DNA of 62,556 nucleotides, counting the filler, from Pirum gemmata (lineage: Eukaryota): NCBI GenBank assembly GCA_002812295.1. It is 15 parts of 15 records of this genome, joined end to end, with 100 filler letters (N's around TTAATTAATTAA, not from the genome) between each part and the next. Parts side by side here need not be neighbours in the genome. Positions count along the whole stretch, not along the records: positions 22,701 to 26,521 come from PDIN01001905.1; 14 more parts are not named here. One strand, 5' to 3'. Each line of letters opens with the position of its first letter. Within the stretch, counting starts at the first letter, position 1. The position numbers and the translations under genes were made by a program. The notes under the pieces are model-generated. The model ran no database searches, was not told the DNA's origin, and saw only the letters and a program-made list of their open reading frames with translations. Positions 22,701 to 26,521 of the stretch are shown here, in pieces.

Positions 22701-22793
22701 TTTCCTGAAAATAATTTGCCTTTTGTTGACAAATATAAGTATTTGGGATTAGGGATTAATCACTACTGGAAATGGAATAGGAAATTTGTTTAG
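22701..22793 (+). pseudogene. Possible short fragment of a non-LTR reverse transcriptase at the scaffold edge
   Basis: Translates FPENNLPFVDKYKYLGLGINHYWKWNRKFV*; VDxYKYLG is a typical LINE RT C-terminal motif. Only 30 codons. Confidence 0.4.
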
Positions 22794-22817
22794 ATCATAT
22801 TGATCAAATAGATATTT

Positions 22818-23234
22818 CTAAGTTCCAATGGCATACCAAGTAACAGTATTACTAACATCGAATTTTGCACTTCCCCAAGTTTCTATGGTTATGTAAAACG
22901 ATGTTTTAGAAACGTGAGTTATTAATATCCGGAACCGAACTTTATTATAATTACCAAGATCTAAATAAAGTGTAGAAAATCCTGCAAGTACGTGTGGTGG
23001 GGAAGTATATGCTTTGGGAAATACAACTTCTTGAAATGCTTTAATTATTTTCCCATTAAACCGTTTTTCTCCTTTTTGTACAAGAAAATTCGGTGCTTCA
23101 ATTATGGATTTTAACGGCGGAGGATTTGGAATAGATCCTTTGTTTGCATCATCAAGTTCTTTTTTGCTTCGTAAATAGAAAACTATAAAAAGTATTACAG
23201 AAACAACAATTAATGTGGCGATTACCCAAACCAT
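22818..23234 (-). CDS. Membrane-anchored H-type-lectin-like protein (138 aa)
   Basis: N-terminal TM helix, Pro-rich stalk, then VVFPKAYTSPPHVLAGFSTLYLD...RFRILITHVSKTSFYITIETWG...VTWYAIG, matching the H-type lectin pattern. Confidence 0.85.
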   Translation of the reverse strand: MVWVIATLIVVSVILFIVFYLRSKKELDDANKGSIPNPPPLKSIIEAPNFLVQKGEKRFNGKIIKAFQEVVFPKAYTSPPHVLAGFSTLYLDLGNYNKVRFRILITHVSKTSFYITIETWGSAKFDVSNTVTWYAIGT

Positions 23235-23368
23235 TTATTCCAATATAAAAAAGAATTTTTTTTAGCTTAAAAAACTTAAAAAACTTAAAAAAAAATAAAA
23301 AAATAAAAAAAAATAAAAAAAAAATATTTTAAATTTTAAAAAAAAAACTTAAAAAAATATAAAAAAAA

Positions 23369-24208
23369 ATGTATGTATGGAAACACAATCCTCGCAATCC
23401 TCAGATTCAAAACGTGAAGGATCAAATTGTTGATAAAGTAAACGATATTGTGACTAATAATAACTATTTGGAGATAATTAACTATTATCATCGAGATAAA
23501 GAACTAAATTTTAATGAATCGTTACACTTGTATACTGTCAATGGTGAAAAGTATGTATCAGTCACTACATTTATTGGGTTTTTTTTTCCAGTATTTGATC
23601 CTGATTATGTGATTGATGTTTATAATTTAACAAATAGTAATAAATATCAAGGTATGACCAAAAATGATATCAAGCAGAAATGGGAAGAAATGGGAAAAGA
23701 AGCTTCTGAATTGGGAAGTAAATTACACGCTATAATTGAATTTTTTTATAATAATAGTCGTAAAGTGCCCGTTACTATTGATATTAAGAAAGAGTATCAT
23801 TATTTCTTAAATTATTACAAGTCTAAAGTCGGTATGAATTGGCAACCGTATCGTACAGAATGGCGAATTTTTGATGAAGACTTAAAAATTGCAGGTACAA
23901 TTGACATGATGTTTAAATGCGATGACGAGTATATTATGGTCGATTGGAAACGGACTAAATCAATAAAATTACCACAAAAATGTTTTAAATCAATTCCGGA
24001 ACTGAATTTAAAAGATTGTAATTTTCATAAGTATTCATTACAATTAAACATGTATAAATATATTTTAAAATCGAAATATAACGTAAACGTCTCTAAAATG
24101 TATTTAGCAGTATTTCATTCAAATAACACAACATTCTTGGAATACGAAGTTGATGATTTACAAGATAAAATCGAAACTATGATAAAATTAAAATATTATC
24201 AAGAATAA
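23369..24208 (+). CDS. PD-(D/E)XK superfamily (Cas4/RecB-like) nuclease of large-DNA-virus/phage type (279 aa)
   Basis: Intronless. Motifs SVTT, ASELGSKLH, RTEWRIFDEDLKIAGTID, MVDWKR and YSLQLNMYKYIL give the E...D...DWK catalytic set plus QLxxY. Confidence 0.9.
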   Translation: MYVWKHNPRNPQIQNVKDQIVDKVNDIVTNNNYLEIINYYHRDKELNFNESLHLYTVNGEKYVSVTTFIGFFFPVFDPDYVIDVYNLTNSNKYQGMTKNDIKQKWEEMGKEASELGSKLHAIIEFFYNNSRKVPVTIDIKKEYHYFLNYYKSKVGMNWQPYRTEWRIFDEDLKIAGTIDMMFKCDDEYIMVDWKRTKSIKLPQKCFKSIPELNLKDCNFHKYSLQLNMYKYILKSKYNVNVSKMYLAVFHSNNTTFLEYEVDDLQDKIETMIKLKYYQE

Positions 24209-24299
24209 ATACAACCAATACAACCAACATTCTTGGAATACATACGAAGATAAAAATCGAAACAATAAATTCAAGAAACTAAAATATATTTTTAAATAA

Positions 24300-24593
24300 A
24301 TGTCTGCTACACAGTTTATAGACTCTAAAACTATTGTTGGATCTTACAATCATCCAGGAAATCCCGCGCCTTTGGGTGTAACAAGACGAATAAATTTTTC
24401 AAAACCATTTACAAAACCACCAATCGTTATGCTTTCATTAACCAAATTAGATCAAAAAGTACCAGGACAGTTAATTCATAGTTACAGAACCGCTAGTACA
24501 ACAACAACGAATTGTGTTATAGAAATTAAAATAAATAGCAGAAAACCAATTTTCTTAACATATGAAATTCATTGTTTGGCCATTGGAGAATAA
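24300..24593 (+). CDS. Small soluble H-type-lectin-like protein (97 aa)
   Basis: RRINFSKPFTKPPIVMLSLTKLD...IHCLAIGE parallels the 22818 protein (F-x-x-x-F/Y-x-x-PP-x-V ... AIG). Confidence 0.75.
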   Translation: MSATQFIDSKTIVGSYNHPGNPAPLGVTRRINFSKPFTKPPIVMLSLTKLDQKVPGQLIHSYRTASTTTTNCVIEIKINSRKPIFLTYEIHCLAIGE

Positions 24594-24612
24594 ATATTAA
24601 TTAATAAATAAT

Positions 24613-24661
<49 letters not shown>

Positions 24662-24662
<1 letters not shown>

Positions 24663-25552
24663 TGAATAAACTAAATGCTAAACAAAAGCAATTAGTAAAT
24701 ATTAAAAAACAATATGACAATTTAGAAAAAATATATTTGGGTAACAAAACTTTAAAAAACCTAAAAAAATTAGATTATGTTAAAAAAAAATACAATAAAG
24801 AATTACAGAAATATTATACATTAAAAGCAACTATCGATTCCAGTTGTGCCCAAATTTCTTCGAGAGATTGTATGTCTTGTGAACGATCTTTACGAGAATT
24901 ACAAAAAAAGTACAATTATCTTCTAGCTAAAACACAAAATAAACAAGTACCCTATAAACCAATGCCTTATAAACCTTCATATAAATCAAATAGGTCTTCA
25001 TCTTCATATCCACCACCACCACAGCCACCACCACCACCACCACCACCACCATCAAGTTATCAATCGAATTCCTCATCATCATCTTCAAGTTCATTATTTG
25101 ATGCAATAAATGCTGGAAACTTTAATCTAAAAACGATCATCAACAACAATAATAATTCAAATTCGTCACCACCACCACCACCACCACCTCCGTCAAATCT
25201 TTACTCGAATTCACCCTCTTCTGCTTCTTCTTCTTCAAATTCTTTATTCGATGCAATAAATGCAGGTAATTTCAAACTAAGAAATTCAAAAGACAGGACG
25301 ACGACTACTACTAATATCAACCCTCCATCACCAACAAACTCTAGTTCACGAAGTTCTTTATTTGATGCAATAAATGCAGGTAATTTCAAATTAAGAAATT
25401 CTAAAGACAGAGTAATTAAGAATCGTTTACCAATATCACCAAGTTCATCTTCTGATAGTTTGTTAAATGCTTTACAAAATAAACTCGCAAATATACGCTC
25501 TGATGTTAGTGATGATGATAACAATACTGATGATGAAAGCGATTGGATTTAG
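24662..25552 (+). CDS. WASP/WAVE-like actin nucleation-promoting factor (coiled coil, poly-Pro, 3x WH2, central helix, acidic tail with Trp; 296 aa)
   Basis: Three SLFDAINAGNF(N/K)L(K/R) WH2-like motifs, two poly-Pro tracts, C helix SLLNALQNKLANIR and terminal SDDDNNTDDESDWI. Intronless. Confidence 0.88.
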
Positions 25553-25599
25553 TCATTTTAATTTTTTTTTAAATTTTTTTTTTCTATTAATAATAAAAC

Positions 25600-26521
25600 A
25601 TGAATCTAACAAATATACTCTTTTTATTTGCAGCATTTGGAAATATGTCATCTTGTATTTCCAATGCTCAAACACATAAAATATTATCTACTGATCCAAT
25701 TCAATGTATTAATTTTTGTATTGCTTCAGGAAAGCAAACAGGAATATTAGTGCGTGGTTCGAATTCGTGTAGCAATGGAAATTGTCCATCACAAAATATA
25801 TAGTAGATAAGGTGACGACGAAAATTAATAATTGGAAGCTTAAGCCAACCGGTGTATAAATGTGTTTATGAAGAAAACGAAGAAGTAAGAAGTAGTAGCG
25901 CATGTAATTTTCCGTCATCATGCCAACCATCAAAGTATCAATAAATACGAAACTAGTATTGGAGATTTGATTGAACCGTTAAATGAAGTTTTTACCATGC
26001 CGTTATTGCATATATTGATGAAAACTTGTTTAAATAGGTAAACCGAATTTCGAAAATTAAATTACAACAATATAAAAGCTATTCGTTAGCAGAACTTATC
26101 CTAAATGCAGTTGGAATTATTCGCAAATTCGAATACATGTTAATTCATAAACCCTATACTTTTTTTCAAAACAAGAATTGTGTTAATGCTAGTATCTCTA
26201 AAAATAATTATATAGGATTAGTACAATTTATTTTGCTGTTCATTGCTATACAAAATCCAGTATAAGTTCTGAACTTGTAGACATTTATCGAAATTGTGAA
26301 AGTAAAGTAGATATTAACTTAGAACTAAATCGTGGAAGTACATTCACAGAAGAAAGTAGTGATCGACAACAATACGAACTCAAGAATAATGAAATTTTTT
26401 TTTTATTTGTTATCCCTATTTACGCCAAATGTTTCTAAACATCAACGTTAAAGACTTAACCATCAACGAAATAGTTTGTGGTTCGATTCTTTTCAATTGC
26501 GAACCCTTACAAGGTTTTTGT
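25600..26521 (+). pseudogene. Disrupted gene for a secreted Cys-rich protein
   Basis: Signal-peptide-like start MNLTNILFLFAAFG and Cys-rich 67-aa ORF (25600-25803). Coding-like sequence continues to the scaffold end in shifting frames with stops. Confidence 0.5.

What the first reader, a model, noticed from the sequence alone, without database searches (positions are those of the whole stretch)
22701..26521. Gene-dense intronless scaffold resembling a fragment of a large DNA virus or endogenous viral element
Seen: four intact ORFs plus one disrupted ORF in 3.8 kb, with 47-134-nt A-rich spacers, no introns, and none of the TTAGGG tracts, CTAG runs or MITEs that fill most other scaffolds. Established: this PD-(D/E)XK nuclease type is common in nucleocytoviruses and phages. 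Inference: an attachment (lectins) + actin remodelling (NPF) + DNA processing (nuclease) module from a giant virus or large mobile element. No hallmark gene (capsid, PolB, packaging ATPase) is in the window, so the virus group cannot be named.
Basis: partly seen in the sequence, partly recalled or inferred. Interest (0 to 1): 0.78.

Follow-up and report, generated by a model that had tools for sequence, protein, structure and literature searches.

The report
Giant-virus fragment spliced into protist retrotransposon
A 3-kb block of five intronless genes, likely a scrap of a giant virus, sits joined to pieces of a host retrotransposon in the genome of Pirum gemmata, a single-celled relative of animals in which no giant-virus insertion had been found, and it still carries an intact, weakly transcribed gene predicted to switch on the host's actin-branching machine.

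Summary
In detail: four intact intronless ORFs and one broken ORF fill the scaffold. The host is Pirum gemmata (Ichthyosporea). ORF2 is an MGME1/RecB-type exonuclease of a family common in giant viruses (34-43% identity; phages 23-30%). ORF1 and ORF3 are H-type lectins. ORF4 has polyproline, three WH2-like repeats, a central helix and an acidic-Trp tail, the layout of a WASP-type Arp2/3 activator.

The LINE sequence resumes for 42 bp inside ORF5, 3 kb away. DNA contigs bridge both junctions, and the block's depth matches unique host DNA. Two spliced RNA data sets hold it at low depth, and a decayed second nuclease copy exists.

Best reading (0.7): an endogenous giant-virus fragment, likely stitched into a LINE by template-switching repair. 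No hallmark gene is present, and the nuclease tree does not exclude a prokaryotic origin (AU p=0.18). Endogenous giant viruses are known in Amoebidium, but a published screen found none in Pirum. My literature searches found no giant-virus WASP mimic.

The parts
22701..22780 (+). Fragment of a host non-LTR retrotransposon (LINE) reverse-transcriptase C-terminal region (YKYLG motif); runs off the scaffold end
   Evidence: Profile of 58 LINE blocks hits 22701-22781 (E 7e-5) and the window's own LINE at 32413-32517; 17 of 17 long ORFs scanned carry RVT_1; summed depth 111,248 in X1
22781..22794 (.). 14-nt filler absent from intact LINE copies; resembles an imperfect copy of the adjacent bases 22768-22780
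   Evidence: Comparison of the window with joints and loose ends; sequence
22795..22811 (+). LINE continuation, 16 of 17 letters equal to intact copies; its last 6 bases overlap the start of the right-hand LINE piece (one mismatch)
   Evidence: Loose end behind 22780 in X1 and X3, and letters between the joint sides
22818..23234 (-). ORF1, 138 aa: N-terminal transmembrane helix plus H-type lectin domain
   Evidence: Pfam PF09458 45 bits, cut-off 24; hydropathy 3.04 at the N-terminus; weak match to Helix agglutinins, E 0.04
23235..23368 (.). 134-nt, 94% A+T spacer between the divergent ORF1 and ORF2, with short A-rich repeats; likely a two-way promoter region
   Evidence: function inferred
23369..24208 (+). 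ORF2, 279 aa: PD-(D/E)XK exonuclease of MGME1/RecB/lambda-exonuclease fold, of a family common in giant viruses; motif residues H120, E164, D179, D192, K194, Q225, Y229 intact
24300..24593 (+). ORF3, 97 aa: stand-alone H-type lectin domain
   Evidence: Pfam PF09458 29.7 bits, cut-off 24
24662..25552 (+). ORF4, 296 aa: basic N-terminal region, two polyproline runs, three WH2-like repeats (about residues 143-158, 193-208, 231-246), central helix (about 264-281) and acidic tail with Trp295; WASP-type layout
   Evidence: Repeats D2 and D3; Pfam WH2 below cut-off, 17.3 of 23.1 bits; phmmer hits P0121 and a WASL-like protein, E 1.5e-5 and 2.7e-5
25600..25797 (+). ORF5, 5' part: hydrophobic N-terminus, five cysteines; broken at codon 66 by LINE sequence
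   Evidence: no Pfam family
25798..25839 (+). 41-42 bp LINE piece that continues the left-flank LINE where it stopped, apart from the 6-bp overlap
   Evidence: Joint 22775/22780 to 25798 in X1 (depth 399) and X2 (800); loose end behind 25838 in X2; X1 contig 25198-26034 spans it without a difference
25840..25944 (+). Likely 3' part of ORF5: 34 open codons with three cysteines in the same frame as the 5' part
   Evidence: Read-through with X; continuity is inferred
25945..26521 (.). Unidentified multi-copy, transcribed sequence without an intact ORF
   Evidence: X1 depth 646-1636 and loose ends at 25991, 26191, 26422; no Pfam hit in six frames

Best explanation
The scaffold holds a 3-kb block of five intronless genes joined to pieces of a host LINE retrotransposon in Pirum gemmata, and the block is likely a fragment of a giant virus (Nucleocytoviricota) that became part of the host genome. 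The order is LINE, block, 42 bp more of the same LINE, then likely the rest of the broken fifth gene. This interleaving is best explained by a repair or copying event that switched between LINE and viral templates (inferred). In the donor virus the exonuclease would trim DNA ends for recombination or replication, the two lectins would bind sugars, and ORF4 would bind actin through its WH2-like repeats and activate Arp2/3 through its central and acidic tail (all inferred from domain or motif). In the host the block sits at about single-copy depth and is transcribed at a low level; whether it does anything there is unknown, and a young, passive insertion is the default.
For: Host: P0001 is EukProt EP00122_Pirum_gemmata_P004808 and equals ORF2 residues 96-279 less 17 residues. 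Phage records: 7 of 50,697, 23-30%. Prokaryote species genomes: 40 stretches in a collection of 185,579 genomes, with one pattern; L083 is nearly identical to giant-virus locus L008. In both trees ORF2 lies among viral and unlabelled rows, outside the prokaryote-rich clade. A WH2-bearing relative of ORF4 (P0123 cluster) lies in viral contig L081. Integration: X1 contigs 22722-23268 and 25198-26034 bridge both LINE junctions without a difference; block contigs have depth 127-442, host contigs 154-629. Transcription: X2 and X3 are spliced RNA (contigs stop at exon 27614-27840; 0 depth in unique intergenic bins) and hold identical pieces of ORF2, ORF3 (X2 only) and ORF4 at depth 3-25. Composition.
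Against: No capsid, polymerase B or packaging ATPase gene in the block, and no whole genome was held to look elsewhere. Only ORF2 has clear viral relatives; ORF1, ORF3 and ORF5 have none and ORF4's best hits are weak and include a cellular WASL-like protein. ORF2 sits on a long branch in an unresolved fork, and the AU test does not reject grouping it with the prokaryote-rich clade (p 0.184). The family also occurs in genuine-looking archaeal and Bacteroidota contigs. Both bridging contigs come from X1, which may be the assembly's own source; no listed X2 or X3 contig bridges a junction. Contig depth is a rough measure. WH2 scores are under Pfam's cut-off. A published ViralRecall screen found no reliable hit in Pirum (PMC11244446).
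Confidence: 0.7

Rival explanations
1. The block is cargo of another large mobile element (Polinton-like virus, adintovirus or large DNA transposon) that inserted into the LINE with a 6-bp target duplication; the open frame after the 42-bp piece is chance.
For: 6-bp overlap with one mismatch at the two junctions; 6-bp duplications are typical of Polinton integrases (recalled). Adintoviruses and Plavaka giant repeats occur in Amoebidium and polinton-type viruses in Sphaeroforma (PMC11244446, section 7 and passages). The right end is an unidentified repeat.
Against: No terminal inverted repeat at the block ends among the 25 longest of 172 inverted pairs; no integrase, polymerase or capsid ORF; the block ends inside ORF5 and 6 bp behind ORF1's stop; ORF2's relatives sit in giant-virus contigs.
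Confidence: 0.11
2. The block belongs to a persistent, non-integrated giant virus living in the culture that has itself captured host LINE pieces.
For: Most ORFs are intact; identical pieces occur in runs of three studies; the scaffold never reaches a host gene.
Against: Depth lies in the range of unique host DNA; a second nuclease copy carries frame-breaking indels, as expected of decaying genomic DNA; a screen of the assembly found no giant virus (PMC11244446).
Confidence: 0.08
3. The genes are host genes or separate transfers from prokaryotes (nuclease from an archaeon or bacterium, ORF4 a derived host WASP) gathered by retrotransposon activity.
For: AU test does not reject a prokaryotic grouping; nearest Atlas clusters for ORF1 are eukaryotic and bacterial H-lectins, scores under 0.9; the fold is closest to human MGME1 among solved structures.
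Against: Five intronless genes on both strands with 47-134 nt spacers in an intron-bearing, repeat-rich genome; only 12-13% identity to MGME1 against 34-45% to viral relatives; ORF4 shows no WH1 or other cellular WASP N-terminal domain.
Confidence: 0.08
4. The junctions are an assembly chimera between a co-sequenced virus and a high-copy LINE.
For: Short-read scaffold; the LINE is extremely abundant; X1 may be the source data.
Against: Separately assembled X1 contigs carry both junctions letter for letter, including the 14-nt filler that intact LINE copies lack.
Confidence: 0.03

Closest known systems
Giant endogenous viral elements (GEVEs) of Amoebidium appalachense (Sarre et al. 2024, PMC11244446; passages, section 7 and one supplement row read)
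   Same: Ichthyosporean host; gene-dense, intron-poor foreign block; incomplete viral gene set; transposons mixed in
   Different: Here only 3 kb with no hallmark gene; host reported to lack DNA methyltransferases and to give no ViralRecall hit; weakly transcribed in ordinary RNA data; interleaved with a LINE in continuing order, not simply interrupted by one
Baculovirus P78/83 (BANPF), a viral WASP-like Arp2/3 activator (PMC11654684, passages read)
   Same: Viral protein with WH2 and WASP-type tail, and its own N-terminal domain
   Different: No sequence comparison made; ORF4 has three WH2-like repeats; donor is likely a nucleocytovirus; activity untested
Class I nucleation-promoting factors (WASP/N-WASP, WAVE, WASH)
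   Same: Polyproline, WH2, central helix, acidic tail with Trp in that order; aligns to a WASL-like protein
   Different: No WH1, CRIB or SHD regulatory domain detected; WH2 scores under the Pfam cut-off
MGME1 / RecB / lambda-exonuclease / Cas4-type PD-(D/E)XK nucleases; phrog_298
   Same: Fold (Foldseek E 1e-7 to MGME1) and motif residues
   Different: 12-13% identity to MGME1; belongs to a family common in giant-virus metagenome contigs
Viractins and virmyosins of Imitervirales (PMC10583209 passages; PMC8850707 listing only)
   Same: Giant viruses carrying cytoskeleton genes
   Different: Those are filament or motor homologues; ORF4 is a predicted regulator, a class that review does not mention (0 hits for WASP, WH2, Arp2)

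Membership tests
Endogenous giant-virus (Nucleocytoviricota) element | Genes with closest relatives in nucleocytoviruses | tested here: inconclusive
   Met by similarity for ORF2; weak for ORF4; none for 3 of 5 ORFs; tree unresolved, AU p 0.184
Endogenous giant-virus (Nucleocytoviricota) element | Physical junction with host DNA | tested here: met
   X1 contigs bridge both LINE junctions without a difference; flank identified as LINE; one data set only
Endogenous giant-virus (Nucleocytoviricota) element | Depth like unique host DNA | tested here: met
   127-442 against 154-629 in X1; contig depth is a rough measure
Endogenous giant-virus (Nucleocytoviricota) element | Gene-dense, intron-poor, compositionally distinct | tested here: met
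Endogenous giant-virus (Nucleocytoviricota) element | Linked hallmark genes (capsid, PolB, A32 ATPase, VLTF3, D5) | not testable with these tools
   None among the five ORFs; no whole genome held
Endogenous giant-virus (Nucleocytoviricota) element | Silencing by 5mC, as in Amoebidium | not testable with these tools
   No methylation data; low-level RNA cover seen
Class I nucleation-promoting factor (ORF4) | Polyproline followed by WH2 motif(s) | tested here: inconclusive
   Polyproline and three repeats present; Pfam WH2 E 0.0036, 17.3 bits, under the 23.1 cut-off; two repeats align to the WH2-like motifs of a WASL-like protein
Class I nucleation-promoting factor (ORF4) | Central amphipathic helix and acidic tail with Trp | tested here: met
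   Central region aligns to that of P0122; acidic tail with Trp295 read from the sequence
Class I nucleation-promoting factor (ORF4) | Binds actin and activates Arp2/3 | not testable with these tools
   No actin sequence could be obtained for a complex model
H-type lectin (ORF1, ORF3) | PF09458 domain above cut-off | tested here: met
   45 and 29.7 bits, cut-off 24
H-type lectin (ORF1, ORF3) | Trimer that binds Gal/GalNAc | not tested
   Single-sequence model of ORF1 was poor, pLDDT 49.7
Polinton/Maverick or adintovirus | Terminal inverted repeats, integrase, protein-primed polymerase, capsid | tested here: not met
Polinton/Maverick or adintovirus | 6-bp target-site duplication (recalled) | tested here: inconclusive
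   6-bp overlap with one mismatch; equally a microhomology

The most novel reading that the evidence does not exclude
An unknown giant-virus lineage infects Pirum and uses a three-WH2 WASP mimic to drive host Arp2/3; its DNA has entered this methylation-free genome more than once by template switching with active LINEs, and the host now expresses the viral actin activator, which could act in its actin-driven development.
Probability: 0.15. Interest if true: 0.85.

Novelty: new member of a known kind. Interest (0 to 1): 0.55.

Why it matters
It extends giant-virus endogenization to an ichthyosporean reported to lack DNA methylation and to have no such insertions, so small fragments appear to slip past hallmark-based screens and into public proteomes as host genes. 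It ties a predicted giant-virus Arp2/3 activator to a named, cultured host close to animals, which makes the untested idea that giant viruses build host actin directly testable. The junctions are a rare base-level record of how such DNA gets in.

Tried and rejected
No whole genome held, so no hallmark search elsewhere. Single-protein pattern scans found no relative of ORF2 in viral or prokaryote contigs, of ORF4 in viral contigs (35) or of ORF3; word-based homologue searches gave nothing for ORF4 and ORF1; ORF3 and ORF5 were not run through that database (cap spent). Exact WH2 patterns: 0 in metagenomes, 0 and 1 in viral contigs. Atlas: no usable hit for ORF4. ORF1 and ORF3 do not align to each other by BLASTP (46). 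No relative of ORF1, 3, 4, 5 within the 80 viral loci. The left flank alone did not match the window's LINE by pairwise alignment (1278 of 2000 shuffles as good; right piece 46 of 2000) or any PDB chain; only the motif profile identified it, and that profile was seeded by a pattern drawn from the flank, so the independent control is its hit on the window's other LINE. The 42-bp piece was not among that profile's hits; it is tied to the LINE by contig joints. No mimivirus AAAATTGA promoter (motif recalled) in the scaffold. No actin found in viral contigs, so no complex model. No RNA holder was listed as such; X2 and X3 were shown to be spliced. ORF1 has almost no RNA cover in X2 and X3, which shows nothing either way. 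An X2 joint 23182-24348 (depth 4.5) was not followed. L086 and L093 (long fusion ORFs) and loci with short ORFs were left out of the trees; P0061-P0120 were not used. Literature: Pirum plus giant virus (4 papers), giant virus plus WH2/NPF/WASP, H-type lectin plus giant virus, insertion into LINEs, MGME1: none describes this locus or a giant-virus WASP mimic; the library lacks most subscription papers. In table S5 of PMC11244446 the Pirum row's result cells were blank as text.
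Full report
Setting. The window is 15 short scaffolds joined by N spacers; the finding is one whole scaffold, 22701-26521. The best database hit of ORF2 is the EukProt record EP00122_Pirum_gemmata_P004808, which equals ORF2 residues 96-279 except for 17 residues removed by a predicted intron. The host is therefore Pirum gemmata, an ichthyosporean. No whole genome was held.

Observation. Four intact ORFs and one broken ORF are present, with spacers of 134, 91, 68 and 47 nt. 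ORFs cover 64% of the scaffold, against at most 34% in the other 14 scaffolds and at most 12% in 500 shuffles. The dinucleotide signature is the most deviant of the 15 (delta* 127, next 109), with no CpG depletion. This is modest support, since coding density itself shifts composition. The annotated intron at 23771-23821 is probably an artefact: RNA contigs read through most of it and it would delete residues invariant in alignment A3.

The genes. ORF1 (membrane anchor plus lectin) and ORF3 pass the Pfam H-type lectin cut-off; no close relatives were found. ORF2 has 175 relatives among 306 candidates in the protein database, the best about 40% identical and mostly unnamed. With an alignment, 577 of 599 IMG/VR stretches examined encode a relative; 28 of the best 80 are named giant-virus genomes, and 7 of 12 others that I checked have giant-virus-type neighbours. 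Phage records match at only 23-30% (7 of 50,697). One pattern found 40 stretches among 185,579 prokaryote species genomes: some look like misbinned giant-virus contigs (L083 is nearly identical to L008; L099 shares RING and Rieske neighbours with L034), others like true archaea or Bacteroidota. In trees of 175 and 54 rows ORF2 lies on a long branch among viral and unlabelled rows, outside the prokaryote-rich clade, but in no well-supported group, and the AU test does not reject the prokaryotic grouping (p 0.184). Its model (pLDDT 88.7) matches MGME1, then Cas4, AdnAB, lambda exonuclease and RecE; in the viral library the top hits are a marine phage, a pithovirus and Sylvanvirus proteins, then insect-virus proteins. 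The nuclease motif residues are intact.

ORF4. It has two polyproline runs, three near-identical WH2-like repeats, a central helix and an acidic tail ending in Trp-Ile. Pfam WH2 stays under its cut-off. A full HMMER scan of 1.84 billion proteins gave three hits: P0121, an unnamed 129-aa protein with the same repeat and tail layout; a bryozoan WASL-like protein; and P0123, whose cluster lies in viral contig L081 next to ORFs that I read by eye as TFIIB, FEN1, XRN1 and DHFR-TS. Seven earlier AI notes report similar tails in giant-virus contigs; they are leads, not support. Binding to actin or Arp2/3 was not tested.

Contigs of DNA run X1 and RNA run X2 join 22775/22780 directly to 25798 with 11 letters between, and these two places have summed depths of 111,248 and 26,049 in X1. 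They are consecutive pieces of one high-copy element. A profile built from 58 motif-matched metagenome blocks hits 22701-22781 and, as a control, the window's own LINE at 32413-32517; all 17 long source ORFs scanned (of 18 found, among 99 motif-bearing loci) carry a reverse transcriptase domain. The element is a LINE, and its intact copies are highly transcribed (X2 depth 800). In the window the order is: LINE to 22780, a 14-nt filler, 17 more LINE bases, the gene block 22812-25797, then 41-42 bp of LINE continuing with a 6-bp overlap, then 34 open codons with three cysteines in the frame of ORF5. X1 contigs span both junctions without a difference. The joined form shows intact LINE copies elsewhere; it is not proof of an empty allele at this locus. 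Beyond 25945 lies a multi-copy, transcribed sequence that I could not identify.

Mechanism. Two templates copied in alternation, each resumed where it was left, with a short filler and a microhomology, is what template-switching repair leaves (my knowledge; inferred). A simple insertion with a 6-bp duplication explains the LINE side but needs the frame after 25839 to be chance. No terminal repeats were found.

Copy number and expression. Unique block contigs in X1 have depth 127-442; host contigs in the neighbouring scaffold 154-629. X2 and X3 are spliced RNA: their contigs stop at the glyoxalase II exon 27614-27840 (gene named by eye) and unique intergenic bins are empty. They hold identical pieces of ORF2 (depth 3.7-10 in X2, 25 in X3), ORF3 (9 in X2) and ORF4 (25 in X2, 3 in X3), against 675 and 72 for the host exon. 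Contig depth cannot rank genes, so I conclude only low-level transcription. X1 and X2 also hold a second nuclease copy, 5-9% diverged with indels that break the frame: an older insertion or duplicate in decay.

What is known. Sarre et al. 2024 (PMC11244446; passages, section 7, one supplement row) describe hundreds of viral insertions in the methylated genome of Amoebidium, state that other sequenced ichthyosporeans lack DNA methyltransferases, and report no reliable ViralRecall hit in Pirum gemmata. A 2023 review (PMC10583209, passages) lists actin, myosin, kinesin and dynein in giant viruses and has no mention of WASP, WH2 or Arp2. Baculovirus P78/83 is the known viral WASP mimic (PMC11654684, passages). 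PMC12344493 (passages) does not mention Pirum.

Verdict. A real, likely giant-virus-derived fragment integrated in Pirum (0.7), a new member of a known kind. A 3-kb scrap does not overturn the methylation model. Its value lies in the intact predicted actin activator tied to a cultured host and in the readable junctions. Interest 0.55.

Noticed in passing
window 24209-24299: The ORF2-ORF3 spacer holds short scrambled copies of ORF2's 3' end, including an exact 17-nt repeat (24129-24145 = 24225-24241), again like templated filler.
   Followed up: no
runs X1 and X2, matching window 23470-24187: A second, diverged nuclease copy with frame-breaking indels; in X2 its contigs have depth 9-17.
   Followed up: partly
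window 23771-23821: The public gene model Pgem_evm1s4381 treats this viral-type gene as a host gene with a probably false intron and a late start.
   Followed up: yes
window 27614-27840: Exon of a gene that reads as glyoxalase II (by eye); used as host control; the X1 contig differs from the window at 5 letters and by indels, likely another allele.
   Followed up: partly
window 28466-28639 and 28930-29045: Very high-copy short repeats (summed depth up to 1.2 million in X1), MITE- or SINE-like, also in RNA.
   Followed up: no
window 32042-32814: Frameshifted LINE reverse transcriptase of a different family from the flank (RVT_1 E 6e-11).
   Followed up: partly
L081:5856-7001 (-): Viral-contig protein with two CCDC53 (WASH complex)-like repeats, polyproline and a WH2-like motif: another candidate giant-virus actin regulator.
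   Followed up: partly
L083, L099: Contigs in prokaryote genome bins that look like misbinned giant-virus DNA.
   Followed up: partly
window 13228-14763 (-): A long (about 1.5 kb) open frame with CCCH- and RING/IBR-like cysteine patterns by eye; not searched.
   Followed up: no
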